From NCBI GenBank assembly GCA_046293555.1, contig JBKBOT010000034.1, positions 1 through 15,716 of the forward strand: a DNA stretch of 15,716 bases, given 5' to 3'. This stretch comes from Pyrobaculum sp. GTDB taxonomy: Archaea > Thermoproteota > Thermoprotei > Thermoproteales > Thermoproteaceae. Below, piece after piece: positions 2,470 to 15,716 of the stretch; the first letter of the stretch is position 1, and every line of letters starts with the position of its first letter. Both the position numbers and the translations under genes were made by a program. Under the pieces are notes generated by a model, which saw nothing but the letters and a program-made list of their open reading frames with translations, was not told the DNA's origin and did not search any database.

Positions 2470-3612
2470 CTACCCCCGGCGGCTGACAAACCGCCGCCTT
2501 ATGGCGTGTATCACATGTGGGATGTCTATAGCCATGGGGCAGACCGCCTTGCAGTTGCCGGCGTGGACGCATGACATGGCGTGGGGGCCGGCGGCCTCCA
2601 CGCCTCTAGTCACCGCGGTCCACATCACGCCCATGGGGCCCGTATATGGCGGCACCCCGAACTCAGGCCCCAACACGCGGTATATGGGACAATGCATGTG
2701 GCATCTCCCACACCTAACGCAGAGCAACGCCTCCCACAGCTCCGGGTCCCTCGCCGCCGCCCGCCTGCCGTTATCTACAAGCACCATGTGGAACTCCCTA
2801 GGCCCCTGCGCCGGGGTTACTCTATACATCTCCACGTCGGCCGTGGAGCTAGGCCCCGCGGAGACGTTGACATATGTAGGCGGGTAGAGGCCGGCGTAGG
2901 CAGACTGCACCAACGCCGCCATTAGGGCATGGGGGAGGGTGGGCACCAGCTTCTCCACCCCGTCGTACACGATATGCACCGGCGGGAGGCCAGAGGTCAG
3001 CCTGATGTTACCCTCATTTTCCACAAGCACCACGGCGCCGGTGTCCGCCGCGACGGCGTTGGCGCCGGTGATACCTACATCCGCCCTAACTAACTTCTCT
3101 CTGAGAAACTGTCGTGCAGCCTTGGCGACATCTACGGCATCTGGCTTGACGTCAAGACCTAGCCGCCGTCTAAGCACCTCAGCCGCCCTCTCCCTTGTCA
3201 TATGTAAGGCGGGGGCCAGTATGTGGCTAGGCTCCTCCCCCGCCAGCTGTATGAGAAACTCCCCCAAGTCTGTCTCCCACACCTCGTTCCCCCCCTCCTC
3301 AAGCCCCCTGCGGAGCCCAGTCTCCAGCGCCACGTTGTTCTTACTCAACACCACCGTCTTGCCACTACCCACCACGCCCGTCACATACTCCACGGCCTCC
3401 CTGCCGTCAGCCGCCAGGTAGAACCTGCCGCCCGCCCTCTCCACCGCCTTCCTAACCTCCTCGATGTAGAAATCCAGATTTTTCACCACCTCCTCCCTGG
3501 CCCTCCTCACCTCTCTAGCTAGGTCCTTAACGTAGCCATGTCTAGAAAGTATGTCGTAAACTTTCGGCACGACGTTACCCCACGCCCTCTCGATGGCCTC
3601 TTCCCAAGTCAT
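2470..3612 (-). CDS. lutB: LutB/LldF-family lactate utilization protein (LUD domain plus Fe-S ferredoxin domain)
   Basis: VWETDLGEFLIQLAGEEPSHILAPALH, ADVGITGAN, VENEGNIRL, GPREFHMVLVDNGR, CVRCGRCHMHCPIY and CKAVCP. ATG at 3612 preferred to the GTG at 3624. Confidence 0.92.
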   Translation of the reverse strand: MTWEEAIERAWGNVVPKVYDILSRHGYVKDLAREVRRAREEVVKNLDFYIEEVRKAVERAGGRFYLAADGREAVEYVTGVVGSGKTVVLSKNNVALETGLRRGLEEGGNEVWETDLGEFLIQLAGEEPSHILAPALHMTRERAAEVLRRRLGLDVKPDAVDVAKAARQFLREKLVRADVGITGANAVAADTGAVVLVENEGNIRLTSGLPPVHIVYDGVEKLVPTLPHALMAALVQSAYAGLYPPTYVNVSAGPSSTADVEMYRVTPAQGPREFHMVLVDNGRRAAARDPELWEALLCVRCGRCHMHCPIYRVLGPEFGVPPYTGPMGVMWTAVTRGVEAAGPHAMSCVHAGNCKAVCPMAIDIPHVIHAIRRRFVSRRG

Positions 3613-3646
3613 AATTGGTCCCACACAGTTCTGGCCAACATGGCGG

Positions 3647-4546
3647 CTACTCTATAACCTCCGACAGGTCGTAAGTCTCCAACCTGTCGGAAAGATTGAT
3701 AAAACAGATGGGACATGCCACCACCACCTTGTCAGAAAGACGGGCCAGCCTCCTCGCCCTGTCGGCAGCCACCTTTTTCGCCAGCTCTGGCCGTATGGAC
3801 TCCACAGGCCCCCCACAGCAGCCAGAAGTCTCCACCCCAGTGACATAGGGGTCCTCCACAGGCCGGCCCGCGGCAAGGATTTGCCTAATTTTCTCACGTC
3901 TATCTAGAAATCTGCTGTAGAGACACGAGTCGTGAATCACAAAACCTGACATCTTTGCCCTAACCTTGGCTATGTTTACCAAGTCTATGTAGCTAACAGC
4001 CTTTATGTCAAAACCGTATTTGGGGTAGACATGTTCTAATACATACTGCGTGTGGGGGTCCACCGTGATCACCTCGCGGACGCCAGCCTCCTTAAACGTC
4101 TTGTAGACCACCTCCGCCTGCCTCTTAAACTCCTCCTCAAACCCCAGCTCGTAGAGTAGGGCGCCGGAGTAGGGCTCTTCTTCCAACACGCCGAGCTTAA
4201 TGCCGCTTTTCTTAATGAGGTAATATATAGATCTTAACATCATGGACATCCTCACCTCTTCCGCCGGCGTGGGCCGCAACAAGACGCCCCCCAGCGTCCT
4301 CGCCCCCACTTCTGCCAGGCGGGCCCAGACGCCGCCTCTGGCGGCTCTCTCCAAGAGGCCCGTGGCCTTTTTTATCAACGGCGCCATTTGGTACATACAG
4401 GAGGTGTACAACACGCGCTCAGTCTCCTTCTCAAAGTCGAGACCAACCCTCCACTTATTGCAAATCCCAGGATCCACGGGAAGGGGGAGGCCATACCTCT
4501 CCAACGAAAAAACCAACAACTCCCTTAAGACGGCAATCCATGACAT
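3647..4546 (-). CDS. CCG-domain Fe-S oxidoreductase subunit (LutA/LldE or GlcF-like)
   Basis: LYTSC, ITVDPH, HDSCLYSR, CCGG and VACPIC are CCG-domain motifs; directly upstream of lutB. ATG at 4546 preferred. Confidence 0.85.
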   Translation of the reverse strand: MSWIAVLRELLVFSLERYGLPLPVDPGICNKWRVGLDFEKETERVLYTSCMYQMAPLIKKATGLLERAARGGVWARLAEVGARTLGGVLLRPTPAEEVRMSMMLRSIYYLIKKSGIKLGVLEEEPYSGALLYELGFEEEFKRQAEVVYKTFKEAGVREVITVDPHTQYVLEHVYPKYGFDIKAVSYIDLVNIAKVRAKMSGFVIHDSCLYSRFLDRREKIRQILAAGRPVEDPYVTGVETSGCCGGPVESIRPELAKKVAADRARRLARLSDKVVVACPICFINLSDRLETYDLSEVIE

Positions 4547-4752
4547 TACTAAAACAACCACACAACTATAAAAACACTCCCACACAAAACTTTGTAAAAC
4601 GCGGCATACCCCCCGTTTTTCTTTATAACGTAAGCTTTATATATTGACTTTACATTTGTCTACTCCCCCCGCCGTGTTTAAGCGTCTATAAAACGTCGTG
4701 CAGCCCAAACCGCCATGGCGACGTCGAGACCAACCATCACGACGTACAACAA

Positions 4753-4892
4753 CTAAAAAAGAACGCCACGCCGTCTGAATTTAGAAAAACTTTCCGAAAA
4801 AAAGAGACATACGCCAAAAACAAGCCGTACACACCCCAAAACAGCCAGAGAAAAACTTAAAAACCCCCAAAAACAAAACACTAGAAACCCCA
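4753..4892 (+). promoter_or_regulatory. CRISPR leader with BRE/TATA promoter
   Basis: A-tract-rich non-coding region next to the best-conserved repeats. GAGAAAAACTTAAAAA at 4848-4863 sits about 30 nt before repeat 1 and closely resembles the tRNA promoter in this window. The left boundary is approximate. Confidence 0.8.
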
Positions 4893-5294
4893 GAATCTCA
4901 AAAAGAGGATTGAAAGGACGGCGTGTTGGCGTCCAGCGTCTCCTGCCTACAGCAGCGAATCTCAAAAAGAGGATTGAAAGCATTTTCCAGGATGTTGACC
5001 CAGTTTGGTATAAGGCGTGGGTGAATCTCAATAAGAGGATTGAAAGGTATGAACACACGGCCACCATGCTGGCTGTCTTCAACGAGCTGAACCTCAAAAA
5101 GAGGGATTGAAAGAGCTGAAGTCACCTACGTATCTCCAACACGGGGGCCGAATTTCAAAGAGAGGATTGAAAGAAATTTGGCACACTGGCTGGTGTGTAT
5201 TTACCGAATCTCAATAAGAGGATTGAAAGAGTTAGAAAACTTGGGCGTGTCTACCCAAGTGTTCCTCTAGGAATCTCAATGAGGGGGTTGAAGG
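4893..5294 (+). CRISPR. CRISPR array, 7 repeats and 6 spacers, consensus GAATCTCAA(A/T)AAGAGGATTGAAAG, no cas genes in window
   Basis: Repeats at 4893-4916, 4957-4980, 5023-5046, 5089-5113 (25 nt, variant), 5150-5173 (variant), 5206-5229 and 5271-5294 (degenerate terminal). Spacers are 40, 42, 42, 36, 32 and 41 nt. The 3' ATTGAAAG handle, leader position and terminal degeneration give + orientation. Confidence 0.97.
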
Positions 5295-5310
5295 AAGAGA
5301 GAGTTGAAAA

Positions 5311-7704
5311 TTATCTAATGTCGTGTATGTACTTATATATTTCTAACAAAAGGCCGCCGGTTTTCTCTGCTTTCTCTATGGGGGAGAATATCACCTCTAG
5401 CGCCCTCTTTCTCACTTCTTCTGGCAGCGGCGCTAGGGCCATGATGAGGCGGCCTCCGTGTTGGAGGTACATGGGGGACTTCAGTTTTGCTTTGAGTATT
5501 TCCATTATCGCTGGGGCAAACGTCCTGTCGAATCTTGGGGCGTGTTCTACCACGGCTTTCTCTAGCTCCTCGGGCTTGATGTTGGCTATGATCCTTTCGG
5601 CTGTCTCGCGTGGGGTGGCCTCTCTGAAGGGGCCGGCCTTGTAGGCATCTCTCAGCGCCTTCTTTACGGGTTCCACAAAGCGGCTTAACACCCTCTCGGC
5701 GGCGATTTTGTCGAGGTCGTCGTAGAAGGCATTTGTCCACTCCATGTGTAGCTGCCAGAGGGCGTCGAGGAGCTCCTCTGTGAGGGGGGTGCCTCGCCTT
5801 ACTTCTACCCTGTTTTCGGCCGGTATTACCCCCAGCTTGGTTTTGGCGGGGCCTTTTAGGTGGCCGTCTTTAGTTATGGCGGCCTTGTGGCGGAGGAGGG
5901 TCCACAGCCAGGTGGAGAAGATGCGGTATGTGGCTAGGTCGTTCATAAACCTCTGGCCTAGCTCGTAGTCATCTATGGCGGCCGCCAGGTTGCCGTTTAG
6001 TAGCTGGAAGCCGTAGTTGGCGGCCATGTAGAAGGCGTGTTGTATGTGCTCAATGGTGATGTCGCCCCTGGGCGGCTCGTAGAGGGCTTTCCAGAGGTCT
6101 CCGCCCCACGGCGCCGAGAGGAGCTTCTCGGGGGTGTCCACCTCTTCCCGCCTGATGACCCACGGCGTGATTTCTCCCCTCTCGTCAATAAGGCCGAGGC
6201 GTTGGAAGAGAGCTCTCTCCTGTTCTGTAAGGCCGCTGTCTGCCGTGGGTATCTTGACGCCGTCTACCTCCACGTATCTTACGGGGCGGCTTATCAGTTC
6301 TTGTAACTCCTCTAGCTCCGCCCGCAGCGGCTCGTTGCCGGCCTTGACGTAGCTCTCCTCCGGCGTCGCCACCCAGCTTTGTCTAAAGAGGTCGTAAAGC
6401 CTGCCCTTGGCTTCGCCCGACAGTATCTGCCTCAGCGTCGGCCTGCCCGCCGGCCCCTCTGGCACGAAGATAAGGCCGACGAGCCTCTCCCTGAGTTTAT
6501 CCAGCCAGATGGCCCTTAGGGCGCGGGCGTTGTATCTATGGCGCTGGTAGGGGTCGTCTTGTCTATAGAGCATCACGGCCGCCATGCCGCCCACGGGGCC
6601 CGCGGTGAGCTTCCCCTCCCTGTTGAGTCCAGCCATGAGGCACATGAGGGCGTTGTACTTCTGGTAGGCCATCATGACTGGGTGGGTCATGGTGATGTCC
6701 TGTGGGTCTGGAAACACCGCCTCGTCTTTCCACATCTCTATGAGGGAGGCCAGGTAGTCCCAACGGCCGTTGTTAACCTTGACGAGCCGCTCCCGCCAGA
6801 TCCAGAAAATTACCGGCAGGAAGCGTCCCGCCATGGCCTCCTCGTAGAGCATGGCGATTTTGATCTCGCCCTTGGCGAGGCCGAGCCTCTCCTCTAGCCT
6901 CCTCAAGATTTTCTCGACGACTAGGGCCTCCTCCGGCGTCTGGACTTTGGGTATGTAGAAATAGACGCCAGAGCCGCGGCGTTTAAGGCTGTCGTAGTTA
7001 TTGACGGCGTATATCACTGCCGAGGTTATAAAGGCGGGCGCCGGCCTGCCGTCTACCCTAATGTCGAAATCCAAGATGTGTAAGCCCGGCACCCTGTGGA
7101 TTGGGGTGGGCCACCTCTCTTTTTTAACCCGGTAGGTCTTCCCCCCCTCCACGTAGGGATCCGGCACGTCGCCGGAGAGAACCCTCCTTACCACCCGCCT
7201 CGCGTCCCACACCGCCGCCCACTGTCGGCCGGAGCCCCAGGGCACGTACCACGCGGGGGATGCGTCCTCCTCGTCTTCCATCATGGAGGCCACATCTGCG
7301 TTGATTTGATGTATGGCGCGGCTCATGGGGAACCAAGGCCCCGTGATCTCCAGGCCGGGGTTTTCCAGCGGGTGGAGGTCCCCCGGAGTTGGCACCCTCC
7401 AGTTTAGCCCCCATCGGAGGGGCGTGTCGCGGCCTAGAAAGTTGTCTATAAGGCCCTGGACAATTTCCCTAAACGTCCAGACGTTTCCGTCGGCGTCTAC
7501 AAACCTGTCTTCCCACCTGGGGAATGCCCCCTTCACCCTGACGGACTCACGCCTCTCTAGCCACTCCCGCCTCGCCCGTATCGCCCTGTCTATCTCCGGC
7601 CTAAACTCCCCCGTAAGTTCTTCAATTAGACGTAAGACGTTTATCATACGGCCGTTTACAGACACGTCGCCAAGAAGGTCACCAAAGAGCGTCTTTAAGT
7701 CCAT
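5311..7704 (-). CDS. aceB: Malate synthase (long crenarchaeal type)
   Basis: 797 aa. LEITGP, MMEDEEDAS, SGVYFYIPKV, NNGRWDYLASLI, PVGGMAA, QSWVATP and FMNDLATYRI match malate synthase motifs. Confidence 0.93.
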   Translation of the reverse strand: MDLKTLFGDLLGDVSVNGRMINVLRLIEELTGEFRPEIDRAIRARREWLERRESVRVKGAFPRWEDRFVDADGNVWTFREIVQGLIDNFLGRDTPLRWGLNWRVPTPGDLHPLENPGLEITGPWFPMSRAIHQINADVASMMEDEEDASPAWYVPWGSGRQWAAVWDARRVVRRVLSGDVPDPYVEGGKTYRVKKERWPTPIHRVPGLHILDFDIRVDGRPAPAFITSAVIYAVNNYDSLKRRGSGVYFYIPKVQTPEEALVVEKILRRLEERLGLAKGEIKIAMLYEEAMAGRFLPVIFWIWRERLVKVNNGRWDYLASLIEMWKDEAVFPDPQDITMTHPVMMAYQKYNALMCLMAGLNREGKLTAGPVGGMAAVMLYRQDDPYQRHRYNARALRAIWLDKLRERLVGLIFVPEGPAGRPTLRQILSGEAKGRLYDLFRQSWVATPEESYVKAGNEPLRAELEELQELISRPVRYVEVDGVKIPTADSGLTEQERALFQRLGLIDERGEITPWVIRREEVDTPEKLLSAPWGGDLWKALYEPPRGDITIEHIQHAFYMAANYGFQLLNGNLAAAIDDYELGQRFMNDLATYRIFSTWLWTLLRHKAAITKDGHLKGPAKTKLGVIPAENRVEVRRGTPLTEELLDALWQLHMEWTNAFYDDLDKIAAERVLSRFVEPVKKALRDAYKAGPFREATPRETAERIIANIKPEELEKAVVEHAPRFDRTFAPAIMEILKAKLKSPMYLQHGGRLIMALAPLPEEVRKRALEVIFSPIEKAEKTGGLLLEIYKYIHDIR

Positions 7705-13051: not shown

Positions 13052-13654
13052 CTAGCGATAGCCGTATTGTGAGGTGTACGTTAAGAGCTGTGTTGGCGGC
13101 TTTAGCCGAAAGGCGCCTATTATGGCAAATATATGGCCTATAAACATCAACACGACGCCAAGGAGCCCCAATATTGCACTAACTGCGGACATAAATTCTA
13201 TGGCGAGGGGTGTGGCAATTATGGCGAGAGGTATGGCGGCTAGGAGGATTAATACGCCAATTAAGATCAGCTTGGCCGCAGTTTTGAAATTGTTGACGTT
13301 AGAGGCCTCGAAAAGATTCATGTAGGCTCTCCTTATGAAGAACGCCCAAAGGATGAGTACAATCGGCGCCAAAATCAAAATTATTACAACAGCCGTCAGC
13401 AGTTGAAATATCCTCGTGGCATCATACATAGCGTCGAAGCTTGCAGCCAAAAAAGCCGGAAATAAGACCAACGCGCCGACAAACGGCACAATTACTGCAT
13501 ATAACAAATTCCAGAAGATACCACGCCGGTGGTAATGTTGAGACAAGCCATAAGCCCCGATTAATGTTAAAATCAAGCCGACTATATTTATAAATGGGAT
13601 AATCCATAGGATAAGCCCCACGGCAAATAACTTCTTAGCAGTTTGGAACTCCAT
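13052..13654 (-). CDS. DUF996-like multi-pass membrane protein (copy 1)
   Basis: Several hydrophobic helices. Motifs GLSQHY..IFWNLLY and EASNVNNFKTAA are shared with the two neighbouring paralogs and recalled as typical of archaeal DUF996. Confidence 0.85.
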   Translation of the reverse strand: MEFQTAKKLFAVGLILWIIPFINIVGLILTLIGAYGLSQHYHRRGIFWNLLYAVIVPFVGALVLFPAFLAASFDAMYDATRIFQLLTAVVIILILAPIVLILWAFFIRRAYMNLFEASNVNNFKTAAKLILIGVLILLAAIPLAIIATPLAIEFMSAVSAILGLLGVVLMFIGHIFAIIGAFRLKPPTQLLTYTSQYGYR

Positions 13655-13807
13655 ACTTACATATGTTTAAAGATATAAAAGCTTTTATCCAACGAGGGGC
13701 TTGTAGCGAGCTTGTCAGAAACGCCACAGCTTGAATCACGACAACGGCATGTAGCATATTCCAGTCCGGCCGGCAGTGGTTAAGCCATAGAGTCCAACTA
13801 ACGCCAA
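13655..13807. repeat. Duplicated upstream block, homologous to 14618-14747
   Basis: Shared order on + strand: ATATAAAA-x-CTTT(T)ATCCA, AACGAGGG(G)CTTGT(A/G)GCGAGCT, CGCCACAGCT, CACGA, CGGCCGGC, TAGAG(T/C)CCAA. Includes the minus-strand TTTTATAT TATA box of each gene. Confidence 0.75.
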
Positions 13808-13914
13808 ACTGGCTACAAGCATGAAGACAAGTCTAACAGCTCGTACCAGCTCTATTGACGGCAGGTTTACACTAATCAGCCCAACCACAACCTCCTCGCC
13901 GTGCATAATTCCAT
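13734..13914 (-). pseudogene. Decayed N-terminal fragment of a DUF996-like paralog
   Basis: ATG at 13914 gives MELCTARRL (~MEFQTAKKL), then after frameshifts VGLI, LALVGLYGL (~LTLIGAYGL), RPD and WNMLHAVVV (~WNLLYAVIV). Confidence 0.72.
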
Positions 13915-14050
13915 TACATGCCGTAAGGTCCGGCTGTCACAAAAGTTAGGGGCTTGGAGTAGGTGTGATAATAATACATATTGTAAATGACGTGTCAAGA
14001 CTGATGAGAAATTAAAGTCTAGCTGTAAATAGTGTCTTTTTGTAATCGGC

Positions 14051-14617
14051 TTAGTGGAGAGTTCCGCCTTGTGTTTGTGGTAGGCTTTCGGAAGTTTTTG
14101 GGGGTTTGAGCTCAAAGGCGCCTATTATGGCAAAGATTTGGCCTATTAGGCCAATTATGGCCCCCACGAGTATTACTAACGTGAGTGCTCCTATCCAGAT
14201 TAGTGTAGCCGCGGTCTTAAAACTACTCACTCCAGAAGCCTCATAGAGCCCCGTGTATACCTTTTTGACGAAATATGCTGCGACCACCGCAACAATCCAA
14301 ATTATGACCCAAACTAATAAGATAAATGTGAGGAAGTTAAACGCCGGGGTTGCGCCCGGCGGTTTTGATGCCAACATGGCGAATAGCGTGGTGATTCCCA
14401 CCGCTATGGCTATAACTACGCCAATGATGCCGACAATCACCGCATATAGCATGTTGCGGAAGAGTTCTGGCTTGACGTAGTGTTGGGAAAGGCTGTGGAC
14501 GCCTATCAACACCAAGATCATACCTACTATAGATATGCCGGGTATCAACGCATCTAACAACCCCAGAGACAAGATGAGACCCACGGCGAATACATGTTTT
14601 GCAGTCTGAAACTCCAT
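14051..14617 (-). CDS. DUF996-like multi-pass membrane protein (copy 2)
   Basis: MEFQTAK..FAVGLIL, LSQHYVKPELFRNMLYAVI, LYEASGVSSFKTAATLIWIGALT and IGQIFAIIGAFELKPP. Confidence 0.88.
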   Translation of the reverse strand: MEFQTAKHVFAVGLILSLGLLDALIPGISIVGMILVLIGVHSLSQHYVKPELFRNMLYAVIVGIIGVVIAIAVGITTLFAMLASKPPGATPAFNFLTFILLVWVIIWIVAVVAAYFVKKVYTGLYEASGVSSFKTAATLIWIGALTLVILVGAIIGLIGQIFAIIGAFELKPPKTSESLPQTQGGTLH

Positions 14618-14747
14618 AAATACACATGTCTAAATATATAAAAACTTTATCCATATACAACGAGGGCTTGTGGCGAGCTCGCCACAGCTCACCACGAGTC
14701 TCCATGGCGGCCGGCGGGGTGTAGAGCCCAAAACACCTAAGCTCCAA
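14618..14747. repeat. Duplicated upstream block, homologous to 13655-13807, containing a perfect 18-bp palindrome (14669-14686)
   Basis: Same colinear blocks as 13655-13807. TGTGGCGAGCTCGCCACA equals its own reverse complement. Confidence 0.75.
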
Positions 14748-14868
14748 GCCAGCTTGACGTCGGCTTACGCCAGCCCGACGTGAGGCCCAAAGCTCCTCGT
14801 GCGTGTGTCGCAGTGGCGAGAGTTGGGGGGCTGGAGTGGCGGCGGCGTGCTGTCTTTAGGCCGGCGGC

Positions 14869-15447
14869 TTAGTGGGGGGTTGTGTCTTGTGTCTGTGGCG
14901 GGTTTTCAGGTTTTGGGGGTTTTAGCCCAAAGGCGCCTACTATGGCGAAGATCTGGCCTACTAGATAAATTGCGCCCCCCACGAGTATTATGGCTGTGAG
15001 TGCCCCTATCCACACCAGGGTGGCGGCGGTCTTGAAGCTATCCACCTTAGAGACCTCGTACAGCCCCCTGTATACCCTCTTGACGAAATATGCCACGACC
15101 ACCCCGAGAGCCCAAAGTGGGGCAAATATCAAGATGAGGGAAGTAACCCCGCCGAGGCCGCGGGGCGGGCCTGGCGATGCTGACATGGAGATATACGCCG
15201 TGATTACAACAGCCAGAACTATTACAGAGCCTATGATGGCAATAATGACGGCATATAGCATGTTACGGAAGAGTTCCGGCCTTCTGTAGTGTTTAGACAA
15301 GCCATCAGCCCCCTCTAGAATCAAAATCCAGCTGACTATAACAATAACAAGTAGGATAATTGACGGCGAGAAGATCAATAAGGGGTATGTGATAATAAGT
15401 AGGATAAGCCCCACGGCAAATAACGTCTTAGCAGTATCAAACTCCAT
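14869..15447 (-). CDS. DUF996-like multi-pass membrane protein (copy 3)
   Basis: MEFDTAKTLFAVGLIL, LSKHYRRPELFRNMLYAVI, FKTAATLVWIGALT and VGQIFAIVGAFGLKPP. Confidence 0.88.
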   Translation of the reverse strand: MEFDTAKTLFAVGLILLIITYPLLIFSPSIILLVIVIVSWILILEGADGLSKHYRRPELFRNMLYAVIIAIIGSVIVLAVVITAYISMSASPGPPRGLGGVTSLILIFAPLWALGVVVAYFVKRVYRGLYEVSKVDSFKTAATLVWIGALTAIILVGGAIYLVGQIFAIVGAFGLKPPKPENPPQTQDTTPH

Positions 15448-15716
15448 AACTTAACAGTAATAAAGAATTTTATTAAAAAATTATTACAGCTGTTATCGCA
15501 AGGCTGTATGTAGGTAGCTGGCAGGCGGTAACTACTGCCGGCTGGTCTATTAGCGACTTACCGTTATTTTAGCCCATTTGTCATAACGCCGACAGGCGGC
15601 GTTTGGCCTTAGCGATAAGCGCCTTCTATTCTTGACGTTTAGCGGCCTGGCGTGGCCAATGTCGGCTTTTCCGCGTCGCGGCGCCAGATGTAGGGCGTTG
15701 TGGGGCTTGGCCGCTG

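What the first reader, a model, noticed from the sequence alone, without database searches (positions are those of the whole stretch)
5114..5486. CRISPR spacer 4 matches the neighbouring malate synthase gene, with mostly synonymous mismatches
Seen: spacer 4 (5114-5149, AGCTGAAGTCACCTACGTATCTCCAACACGGGGGCC) aligns without gaps to the malate synthase coding strand at 5486-5451 (AACTGAAGTCCCCCATGTACCTCCAACACGGAGGCC), 30/36 identical. It encodes LKSPTYLQHGG versus the gene's LKSPMYLQHGG, and 5 of the 6 differences are synonymous third positions. The target is only about 300 bp from the spacer. Its 5' flank is CAA, not the CCN/TCN PAM known for crenarchaeal type I-A, and spacer position 2 mismatches, so lethal self-targeting is unlikely. 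Inference: a synonymous bias cannot arise inside a non-coding spacer, so the protospacer was a functional malate synthase allele different from the resident one. Either it came from a related strain or species (chromosomal DNA exchange, with CRISPR discriminating between alleles of a housekeeping gene), or it came from the ancestral resident allele, later replaced by recombination.
Basis: partly seen in the sequence, partly recalled or inferred. Interest (0 to 1): 0.88.

Follow-up and report, generated by a model that had tools for sequence, protein, structure and literature searches.

The report
CRISPR spacer resembling its neighbouring gene
A small, partly decayed CRISPR array in a hot-spring archaeon holds one spacer copied from a malate-synthase gene slightly different from the copy next door; it is a tolerated, probably inert near-self memory of a kind already described in archaea.

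Summary
Spacer 4 (5114-5149, +) matches the coding strand of the adjacent malate-synthase-family gene (5486-5451) at 30/36. It is the only site of 26/36 or better in the 1.75-Mb assembly. Five of the six differences are synonymous, and the 5' flank is CAA.

This genome's own spacer-target pairs give a CCN/TCN PAM (44 of 56). In 13 of 28 known Thermoproteaceae alleles of this site the flank is CCA, so the spacer was taken PAM-dependently from a malate-synthase coding sequence.

The source was not found. The exact 36-mer has 0 hits in metagenome and viral contigs. At up to 3 mismatches it has 0 hits in 61 other genomes of the order. The best allele (Pyrobaculum oguniense type) matches 32/36, better than the resident. 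Third-codon-position mismatches are typical of imperfect spacer hits in this genome (169 of 272).

Sequence alone cannot separate a foreign allele from an earlier version of the resident gene. The leader plus array is a 725-bp lineage-specific insertion that ends 16 bp from the gene's stop. I therefore favour uptake from this same locus through the known array-proximal hotspot (about 0.5) over a foreign allele that is adjacent by coincidence (about 0.37).

The crRNA should be inert. This is a new member of a known kind.

The parts
4586..4892 (+). CRISPR leader. It fills the whole space between the start codon of the CCG-domain gene and repeat 1.
   Evidence: Homologous to sequences just upstream of the first repeat of other arrays or single repeats in the genome: C99 (80% over 307 aligned columns), C26, C4, C113, C139, C37, C85, C17, C98 (repeat positions).
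4893..5294 (+). Mini-CRISPR array of 7 repeats and 6 spacers (40, 42, 42, 36, 32, 41 nt). Repeats decay from the leader end: R1 and R2 match the consensus, R3 has 1 change, R4 has 1 change plus a 1-nt insertion, R5 has 2, R6 has 1, R7 has 5.
   Evidence: Rfam CRISPR-DR45 scores: R1 and R2 41.1 bits, R3 and R6 38.9, R5 34.3, R4 28.7 (gathering score 37); R7 not detected. Orientation comes from the leader, the decay of the terminal repeat and the PAM side.
5089..5113 (+). Repeat 4, upstream of spacer 4. It is 25 nt, with one substitution and a 1-nt insertion.
   Evidence: Rfam score 28.7 bits, below the gathering score.
5114..5149 (+). Spacer 4, 36 nt. It is short for this genome: the median of 293 other spacers is 43 nt and 1% are 36 nt or shorter.
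5150..5173 (+). Repeat 5, downstream of spacer 4, with 2 substitutions against the array's own consensus.
   Evidence: Rfam score 34.3 bits, below the gathering score.
5451..5486 (-). Near-match of spacer 4 inside the malate-synthase-family gene (codons about 740-752 of 797), 30/36 identical.
5487..5489 (-). PAM position of the near-match. It reads CAA on the coding strand, which is not the CCN/TCN used in this genome.
5311..7704 (-). Malate-synthase-family gene, 797 aa. Its stop codon lies 16 bp from repeat 7.
   Evidence: Pfam MS_TIM-barrel E = 1.6e-30. NCBIfam malate_syn_A scores 121.6 bits, far below the equivalog cut-off of 594.5. It is therefore a family member; the function was not tested.
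3647..4585 (-). CCG (cysteine-rich) domain gene. In relatives it follows the malate synthase gene directly.
   Evidence: Synteny.
2470..3624 (-). LutB/LldF-like iron-sulfur protein gene, third gene of the conserved cluster.
4981..5022 (+). Spacer 2. It matches a P-loop-like ORF beside a csa1 gene on contig C19 at 37/42.
5230..5270 (+). Spacer 6. Its best match is contig C30 6508-6545 (31 identities and one 3-nt gap). Its weaker likeness to the malate synthase gene (5531-5565) is judged chance.

Best explanation
Spacer 4 is a genuine Cas1-Cas2-acquired spacer. Its protospacer was a malate-synthase coding sequence carrying a CCA PAM, and that sequence is not the copy that lies next to the array today.

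I think the most likely source was the gene at this same locus, either an earlier version of the resident allele or another strain's version. It would have been sampled through the spacer-uptake hotspot that nicking at the leader-repeat junction creates around active arrays. A spacer with a perfect, PAM-flanked self match would be autoimmune. What survived is a lineage in which the neighbouring gene now reads GCA-AAA instead of GCC-AAG at the PAM and first spacer bases, and differs at further synonymous sites. That state could have arisen by point mutation, by drift, or by replacement of the allele through homologous recombination.

Today the spacer is an inert near-self memory in the older, decaying half of a 6-spacer array.

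Shown here: the match, the PAM rule, the PAM in related alleles, the lineage-specific insertion of leader plus array, and the lack of any closer source.

Inferred: the source locus, the order of events, and the inertness.
For: 1. The spacer is real and non-random: it is the only site at 26/36 or better in the genome, and shuffles reach at most 27. E = 2e-5.

2. Acquisition was PAM-dependent. In this genome 44 of 56 spacers' best targets carry CCN (27) or TCN (17) directly 5' of the target, and 25 of 27 among targets at 90% identity or better. At the malate synthase site, 13 of 28 distinct alleles read CCA, and 26 of 28 have G at spacer position 2, as the spacer does.

3. The adjacency is close. 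The near-match lies 157 bp beyond the last repeat. The 725 bp of leader plus array is an insertion into an otherwise tight malate synthase-CCG-LutB cluster: the gap between malate synthase and LutB is about 920-980 bp in G004, G006, G008, G011, G012 and G017, against 1687 bp here.

4. None of 58 loci from relatives has a repeat near the gene.

5. In the archaeon Pyrococcus furiosus, which also uses a CCN PAM, CRISPR arrays are hotspots of self-spacer uptake. No existing spacer there matches the host at 90% or better, so such spacers are normally purged (PMC5737086, sections read).

6. Other spacers of this genome also hit genes beside arrays or cas genes. Examples are an AAA_14 ATPase gene 693 bp from the C22 array (26/28, TCC flank), csa4 (47/47, CCG flank), cas7 (36/40) and csa1 (35/42).

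7. Both repeats flanking spacer 4 score below Rfam's gathering score. Decay of this kind has been described around self-targeting spacers (recalled, not checked here).

8. An attack on the resident copy is not expected. The flank is CAA (1 of 56 flanks begins with CA), there are 6 mismatches including position 2, and the crRNA has the sense of the mRNA, so the type III-B complex (Cmr2 found) has no mRNA to pair with.
Against: 1. The spacer is no closer to the resident (30/36) than to alleles of other species. The range is 24-32 with a median of 29, and the P. oguniense-type allele reaches 32 and one metagenome allele 31.

2. In-situ drift at equal neutral rates in spacer and gene fits worse than a free model (lnL -21.11 against -18.90; likelihood-ratio statistic 4.4, p about 0.04). 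The free fit needs about 38% change at third positions in the gene but only about 4% in the spacer.

3. The repeats are much better kept than that amount of synonymous change would suggest.

4. Allele replacement is an extra event with no direct evidence. The nearest alleles are at most 83% identical in any 100-codon window, so a breakpoint cannot be seen.

5. This finding was picked because spacer and target share a window. Across many scanned windows, some foreign-derived spacers will lie beside their resident orthologue by chance.

6. My estimate that locus-derived origin is favoured 1:1 to 12:1 rests on rough base rates, not on a computation.
Confidence: 0.5

Rival explanations
1. Foreign allele, with adjacency a coincidence. 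The spacer was taken from chromosomal DNA of another Thermoproteaceae species or strain that entered the cell, for example through the Ted DNA-import system. It happens to correspond to the gene next to the array that stored it.
For: - The best known match is another species' allele (32/36, P. oguniense TE7 type), not the resident (30/36).
- 13 of 28 alleles carry the CCA PAM, and the resident does not.
- Third-position mismatches are the general signature of spacers that hit a homologue of their true source (169 of 272).
- The malate synthase tree mixes the GTDB genera: g3_G024 groups with g1_G007 at 100 SH-aLRT and g3_G059 with g1_G002/G005 at 99. The neighbouring LutB-like and acyl-CoA dehydrogenase genes follow the genus labels. 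This gene therefore does move between lineages.
- Archaeal spacers matching housekeeping and cas genes of other archaea are documented (PMC3285040, passages read).
- Thermoproteales have a chromosomal DNA-import apparatus (PMC9905601, passages read).
- One more spacer hits a housekeeping-type gene, a cobalamin adenosyltransferase on C43, at 34/44.
Against: - No exact or near-exact source was found. The 36-mer has 0 hits in metagenome contigs and 0 in viral contigs. At up to 3 mismatches it has 0 hits in 61 other genomes of the order.
- The orthologue of a random foreign gene would be the immediate neighbour of the storing array only about 1 time in 1000 (my estimate).
- The spacer shares the rare C at position 23 with the resident (2 of 28 other alleles).
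Confidence: 0.37
2. A mobile element carrying a piece of a malate synthase gene (virus, plasmid or integrated element) was the source.
For: Most identifiable spacers of this genome hit element-like contigs binned with it (C19, C21, C25, C29, C35 and others). Spacers 2 and 6 of this array do so too.
Against: - No relative of the C-terminal 299 aa was found in 2.9 million viral contigs: 9 pattern hits, 0 confirmed.
- The array has no match in the phage or plasmid collections at E up to 1.
- There is no second malate synthase copy in the assembly.
Confidence: 0.05
3. Regulatory guide. A degenerate-repeat crRNA with partial complementarity directs Cascade, or a type III complex acting on antisense or read-through RNA, to the 3' end of the neighbouring gene, in the manner of CreA-type mini-CRISPRs.
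For: - Both repeats flanking spacer 4 are degenerate.
- The partial match is to the adjacent gene.
- The array is transcribed towards the gene, so read-through RNA would be complementary to the crRNA (inferred from the geometry).
- CreA guides are flanked by degenerate repeats (abstracts of PMC8501985 and PMC9458426, seen in the listing).
Against: - There is no PAM (CAA), and a mismatch sits at position 2.
- The site lies in the last 6% of the coding region, not at a promoter.
- No relative has the arrangement, so nothing indicates selection for it.
- No RNA data were available.
Confidence: 0.03
4. Chance resemblance or assembly artefact.
For: blastn-short with +1/-3 scoring gives only E = 0.13. 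Spacer 6 shows how a chance likeness to the same gene can look significant against simple shuffles.
Against: - It is the only site at 26/36 or better in 1.75 Mb, and 0 of 100 genome-wide and 0 of 300 local shuffles come near it.
- Mismatches sit in frame at synonymous sites.
- The spacer starts exactly after the PAM position of related alleles.
- A second assembler's contig spans array and gene with 0 differences.
Confidence: 0.01

Closest known systems
Archaeal spacers that match chromosomal (housekeeping and cas) genes of other archaea (Brodt, Lurie-Weinberger & Gophna 2011, PMC3285040; abstract and passages read; its supplementary tables could not be opened)
   Same: A spacer matches a core metabolic gene rather than a virus. 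In this genome several other spacers match cas genes, a category that paper also lists.
   Different: Here the best-placed match is the gene directly beside the array in the same genome. No other organism's gene matches exactly (best 32/36). I could not check whether that paper lists a Thermoproteales or malate synthase case, because those data are in its supplements.
Array-proximal hotspots of self-spacer uptake (Shiimori et al. 2017, P. furiosus, PMC5737086, sections read; that paper cites the E. coli type I-E case)
   Same: CCN PAM, an archaeal host, and protospacers enriched around active arrays. The explanation given there is nicking at the leader-proximal repeat. The site here lies 157 bp from the array.
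   Different: Those are fresh laboratory acquisitions with exact matches, and none persists in the natural arrays of P. furiosus. Here a diverged (83%) match has persisted in a natural array.
Self-targeting spacers and CRISPR autoimmunity (Stern et al. 2010, recalled; review PMC6990116 seen only as title and abstract start)
   Same: A spacer resembles the host chromosome, the PAM is absent, the flanking repeats are mutated, and the array is decaying. All are described routes of escape (recalled).
   Different: Identity is only 30/36, below the usual criteria (for example at least 90% in PMC5737086). The spacer is not closer to the host gene than to other species' genes.
Inter-species mating spacers and CRISPR-triggered recombination in Haloferax (bioRxiv 10.1101/2025.06.18.660351, abstract read; the 2019 mating paper is recalled only)
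   Same: Chromosomal DNA of relatives serves as a spacer source. Targeting promotes homologous recombination, which would provide the mechanism for an allele replacement.
   Different: The phylum, CRISPR subtype (I-B) and mode of DNA transfer differ. Nothing here shows targeting or recombination.
CreTA / CreA degenerate mini-CRISPR regulators (PMC8501985 and PMC9458426, abstract starts seen)
   Same: Degenerate repeats flank a guide that partially matches a neighbouring gene.
   Different: There is no PAM, no seed match, and the target is the 3' end of a metabolic gene. The guide sits inside a normal leader-driven array with ordinary spacers.

Membership tests
CRISPR array (Thermoproteales 24-nt repeat, Rfam CRISPR-DR45) | Regularly spaced direct repeats matching a curated repeat family | tested here: met
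   There are 7 repeats at spacings of 56-66 nt. Rfam scores 6 of the 7, and 4 of those exceed the gathering score. The same repeat, with a one-base variant, forms several hundred copies on more than 30 contigs of the genome.
CRISPR array (Thermoproteales 24-nt repeat, Rfam CRISPR-DR45) | A leader upstream of the first repeat and decay at the far end | tested here: met
   Positions 4586-4892 are homologous to the sequence upstream of other arrays. R7 has 5 substitutions.
CRISPR array (Thermoproteales 24-nt repeat, Rfam CRISPR-DR45) | cas genes for adaptation and interference in the genome | tested here: met
   Found: Cas1, Cas7/DevR, Csa1, Csa4 and Cmr2. The Csa5 search was uninformative because the control rang nowhere. 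None of these genes lies on the window's contig.
Canonically acquired type I-A spacer | The protospacer is preceded by the system's PAM | tested here: inconclusive
   The PAM in this genome is CCN/TCN (44 of 56). The resident site has CAA. 13 of 28 related alleles have CCA. The true source was not found.
Self-targeting spacer (strict sense) | A near-exact match (about 90% or more) to the host chromosome outside arrays | tested here: not met
   30/36 is 83%. The 90% criterion is the one used in PMC5737086.
Spacer from another organism's chromosomal gene (Brodt type) | A clearly better match to a gene of another organism than to the host | tested here: inconclusive
   The best foreign allele matches 32/36 against 30/36 for the resident. 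There is no exact hit. The likelihoods are equal within about 1 lnL unit.
CreTA-like regulatory mini-CRISPR | A PAM-flanked seed match to the promoter of an adjacent toxin gene, conserved among relatives | tested here: not met
   The flank is CAA and position 2 is mismatched. The site is at codons about 740-752 of a malate-synthase-family gene. The arrangement is absent from 58 loci of relatives.
Malate synthase | A score above the curated family threshold | tested here: inconclusive
   The Pfam MS_TIM-barrel domain passes (106.4 bits against 26.4). NCBIfam malate_syn_A scores 121.6 bits against a cut-off of 594.5. It is a family member; the enzyme activity was not tested.

The most novel reading that the evidence does not exclude
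The locus records CRISPR autoimmunity that was resolved by allele exchange. The array captured a spacer from its own neighbouring housekeeping gene. The self-targeting then selected for, and by DNA damage perhaps stimulated, replacement of that gene's 3' part by a PAM-less allele from a related strain. The retained spacer now acts as a barrier against the old allele coming back by recombination.
Probability: 0.15. Interest if true: 0.7.

Novelty: new member of a known kind. Interest (0 to 1): 0.35.

Why it matters
If the spacer came from its own flank, it is a rare natural survivor of the array-proximal uptake hotspot. That hotspot has so far been seen mainly in laboratory acquisition assays. 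It would then show how a lineage lives on after capturing a spacer against a core gene: through PAM loss, synonymous change and repeat decay.

If the spacer came from another species, it adds a Thermoproteaceae case to the evidence that archaeal CRISPR arrays record chromosomal DNA exchange. This family has a newly described DNA-import system and, as the tree here suggests, malate synthase alleles that move between genera.

Either way it is one spacer. It has no sign of present function and no identified source, so its weight is modest.

Tried and rejected
**Second spacer from the same gene.** Spacer 6 has a gapped likeness to 5531-5565, with a Smith-Waterman score of 17 that 0 of 100 simple shuffles reach. 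A scan of the whole genome in 803 chunks gave scores of 23 (C30), 18 (C9, inside a thermosome gene) and 17 (this site). The tail of the score distribution predicts about one chunk at 17 by chance. The mismatches are spread over all codon positions (7, 6, 3), and related alleles match spacer 6 at only 13-20 of 41. I rejected this as chance. The likely homologue of spacer 6's source is on C30.

**Recombination breakpoint in the 3' end of the gene.** I compared the gene with 20 relatives in sliding 100-codon windows. No relative exceeds 83% nucleotide identity in any window, and the nearest relative changes from window to window without pattern. The test has no power.

**Xenology of the resident allele.** In the tree it pairs with G001 of the same genus (99 SH-aLRT), but both sit on long branches. 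The LutB-like neighbour also has G001 among its closest matches. I found no discordance.

**Orthologous arrays.** No repeat (up to 5 substitutions) occurs in 58 loci from relatives. At up to 7 errors, 11 loci gave only scattered single hits. G001, whose gap between the genes is of similar length, has the CCG gene abutting malate synthase and no array.

**Second allele in the sample.** Contigs of runs X1-X3 were laid at 80% likeness. Only X1 holds the stretch. Among the pieces listed, one contig covers 5300-6200. Contigs drop rare variants and 148 pieces were not shown, so this does not show that a second allele is absent. X2 and X3 laid nothing.

**Other spacers of the array.** Spacers 1, 3 and 5 have no significant match in the genome. 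The whole array has none in the phage or plasmid collections.

**Enrichment of protospacers near arrays in this genome.** About 5 of 64 hits lie within 1 kb of a repeat. Those flanks may themselves be mobile or cas-linked, and I ran no formal test.

**Tools and controls that gave nothing.** The Csa5 family search rang in no control genome, so I draw no conclusion from it. Supplementary tables of PMC3285040, which may list comparable cases, were not available.


Full report
**What is there.** The window is the whole of contig C34 of a 1.75-Mb, 145-contig assembly (96% complete by marker genes). Related record titles place it in Thermoproteaceae (Pyrobaculum/Thermoproteus).

On the + strand, 4893-5294 holds seven 24-nt repeats and six spacers of 40, 42, 42, 36, 32 and 41 nt. 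Rfam's CRISPR-DR45 model scores six of the seven repeats, four of them above its gathering score. The two repeats flanking spacer 4 score 28.7 and 34.3 bits against a gathering score of 37, and the last repeat is not detected.

The 307 nt upstream (4586-4892) are homologous to the sequence upstream of other arrays and of several single repeats in the genome. The match to C99 is 80% over 307 aligned columns; C26, C4, C113 and others also match. This stretch is therefore a leader, and the array is read left to right.

Directly downstream, 16 bp after repeat 7, lies the stop codon of a 797-aa gene on the - strand (5311-7704). It carries the Pfam malate synthase TIM-barrel domain (E = 1.6e-30). 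It scores far below NCBIfam's malate synthase A cut-off (121.6 against 594.5 bits). I call it a malate-synthase-family gene.

Spacer 4 (5114-5149) equals the coding strand at 5486-5451 in 30 of 36 positions without gaps. In the gene's frame, five of the six differences are third positions and synonymous. The sixth turns Met into Thr. The 5' flank is CAA.

With arrays masked, this is the only site in the genome at 26/36 or better, and 100 shuffles of the spacer reach at most 27. On the contig, 0 of 300 shuffles exceed 25. blastn gives E = 2e-5 with +1/-1 scoring but only 0.13 with +1/-3 scoring.

A contig from a different assembler of the probable source run spans 4888-6200 with no difference. 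The junction is therefore not a local misassembly. That run uses the same reads, so this is not independent sampling.

**Orientation and PAM come from the genome itself.** I extracted 299 spacers: 293 from the other arrays and the 6 of this one. For the 56 spacers other than spacer 4 that have a hit at E up to 1e-4, the three bases 5' of the best target are CCN in 27 and TCN in 17. Among targets at 90% identity or better, 25 of 27 follow the rule. The 3' side shows no motif.

The genome encodes Cas1, Cas7/DevR, Csa1, Csa4 and a Cmr2. Type I-A-like and type III-B machinery is therefore present, though on other contigs.

**Where the spacer came from.** The site encodes a motif that is conserved in the family. 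From 53 loci of relatives I obtained 28 distinct versions of the 42-nt site. The loci came from species genomes, 23 metagenome contigs and 11 named genome contigs.
- Identity of these versions to the spacer runs from 24 to 32 of 36, with a median of 29.
- Identity to the resident runs from 24 to 34, also with a median of 29.
- The resident's 30/36 is therefore not special. The allele shared by Pyrobaculum oguniense TE7, two genomes of the same genus and one metagenome contig reaches 32, and another metagenome allele reaches 31.
- Thirteen of the 28 versions read CCA at the PAM position, because the Ala-Lys codon pair is GCC-AAG there. Twenty-six of 28 have G at spacer position 2, as the spacer does. 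The resident reads GCA-AAA.
- The Thr codon is found in none of the 28 alleles.

The spacer thus looks like a PAM-dependent capture from a malate synthase gene, plus perhaps one later mutation.

The exact source is not in the data I could reach.
- The exact 36-mer has 0 hits in 241 million metagenome records and 0 in 2.9 million viral contigs.
- At up to 3 mismatches it has 0 hits in 61 other genomes of the order.
- No malate synthase relative was found on viral contigs.
- The array has no match in the phage or plasmid collections.

**What the synonymous bias means.** It does show that most differences arose in a coding copy. That copy could also be the resident gene itself after a self-acquisition.

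The bias is also the rule in this genome. In 64 other spacer-target pairs, 169 of 272 mismatches fall on the third position of the covering open frame. It is the normal signature of a spacer hitting a homologue of its real source.

A site-wise likelihood comparison gives:
- lnL -20.05 for 'a random family allele plus spacer drift';
- lnL -18.90 for 'an ancestor of the resident', with free rates;
- lnL -21.11 if spacer and synonymous sites must drift at one neutral rate.

The first two cannot be told apart. The equal-rate version is mildly disfavoured (likelihood-ratio statistic 4.4, p about 0.04), because it needs far more change at the gene's third positions (about 38%) than in the spacer (about 4%). 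Simple in-situ neutral drift is therefore the weakest variant. A foreign allele, a replaced allele or selected escape changes all fit.

**The adjacency.** In relatives the malate synthase, a CCG-domain gene and a LutB-like gene form a tight cluster. The gap between malate synthase and LutB is about 920-980 bp in six genomes of the same genus, which is just the CCG gene. In G001 the two ORFs abut.

Here the gap is 1687 bp. The extra 725 bp is exactly the leader plus the array. None of 58 loci from relatives has a repeat there (looser search). The array is thus a lineage-specific insertion, and the near-match begins 157 bp beyond its last repeat.

For a spacer taken from a random gene of a foreign chromosome, I estimate the chance that its resident orthologue is the array's immediate neighbour at about 1 in 1000. 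That figure is softened by the fact that the finding was selected for exactly this property.

A mechanism that predicts adjacency is known. In Pyrococcus furiosus (CCN PAM), arrays are hotspots of self-spacer uptake, which is attributed to nicking at the leader-proximal repeat. No such spacer survives in its natural arrays at 90% identity or better (PMC5737086).

This genome has further hits beside arrays or in cas genes:
- an ATPase gene 693 bp from the C22 array (26/28, TCC flank);
- csa4 (47/47, CCG flank);
- cas7 (36/40);
- csa1 (35/42);
- spacer 2 of this array, which hits an ORF next to csa1 (37/42).

I did not test this enrichment formally, and those regions may be mobile.

**Weighing.** Sequence does not discriminate, and adjacency favours an origin at this locus. 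My rough base rates are self-derived flank spacers that survive, against foreign housekeeping spacers times the coincidence. They give odds between 1:1 and 12:1 for the locus.

I therefore put about 0.5 on 'captured from the gene at this locus (an earlier or another strain's allele), now tolerated', about 0.37 on 'foreign allele, coincidental neighbour', and small shares on the other readings.

Support for the foreign reading is real.
- The malate synthase tree mixes the GTDB genera with strong support, while the two neighbouring genes follow the genus labels.
- Archaeal spacers against other archaea's housekeeping and cas genes are documented (PMC3285040).
- Thermoproteales carry the Ted DNA-import system (PMC9905601).

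The allele-replacement variant has a plausible engine, since CRISPR targeting promotes homologous recombination in Haloferax (abstract of 10.1101/2025.06.18.660351). It has no direct evidence here. No relative is closer than 83% in any 100-codon window, so breakpoints are invisible.

**Does it do anything now?** Probably not.
- The resident site lacks the PAM.
- It has six mismatches, including position 2.
- The crRNA has the same sense as the mRNA, so the Cmr complex has no messenger to pair with. Only antisense or array read-through RNA would be complementary, and I could not test that.
- Both repeats that would be cut to release this crRNA are altered.
- The spacer is short for this genome (36 nt against a median of 43).

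A CreA-like regulatory role fails the PAM, seed, promoter and conservation tests.

This belongs with known near-self or chromosome-derived archaeal spacers. The unusual point is that the matching gene is the array's immediate neighbour.

Noticed in passing
G000 contigs C35 4098-4144, C52 4215-4293, C57 348-387 and 2871-2909, C19 17687-17728: Several spacers of the main arrays match cas genes of the same assembly and carry proper PAMs. They hit csa4 exactly (47/47, CCG flank), a second csa4-like gene (40/44 and 34/41), cas7/DevR (36/40, CCC flank) and csa1 (35/42, CCG flank, plus weaker hits on paralogues). Either the bin merges strains or elements with rival type I-A modules, or cas loci are sampled as array-proximal DNA.
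   Followed up: partly
G000 contigs C4 21441, C17 9624, C26 12561, C37 12252: There are leader-plus-single-repeat modules ('empty' arrays) scattered over chromosomal contigs. Each is preceded by sequence homologous to the window's leader.
   Followed up: partly
G000 contigs C19, C21, C25, C26, C29, C35, C41, C50, C52: These contigs are hit by many spacers: 86 of 299 spacers have a hit at E up to 0.01. Most of the targeted ORFs have no Pfam family. Others are a serine recombinase, a TFIIB-like protein and giant 1500-aa ORFs. They look like mobile elements binned with, or integrated in, the host.
   Followed up: partly
loci L199-L219 (malate synthase genes of 21 Thermoproteaceae genomes): The malate synthase tree mixes the GTDB genera. 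One g3 genome pairs with a g1 genome at 100 SH-aLRT, and another g3 genome sits inside a g1 clade at 99. The neighbouring LutB-like and acyl-CoA dehydrogenase genes rank by genus. This suggests lateral exchange of this gene within the family.
   Followed up: partly
window 13052-15478: Three tandem paralogous genes of about 190-200 aa (DUF996, PF06195) sit on the - strand in repeat units of about 810-1000 bp that include their upstream regions.
   Followed up: partly
G000 contig C43 8549-8591: A main-array spacer matches a cobalamin adenosyltransferase gene (PF01923) at 34/44, with most mismatches at third codon positions but no PAM (flank CGG). This is a second, weaker candidate for a spacer derived from a housekeeping gene.
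   Followed up: partly
window 5230-5270 versus G000 C30 6508-6545: Spacer 6 aligns to contig C30 with 31 identities and a single 3-nt gap, on the strand opposite to a 653-aa ORF that has no Pfam family. An in-frame indel fits divergence between coding homologues.
   Followed up: partly
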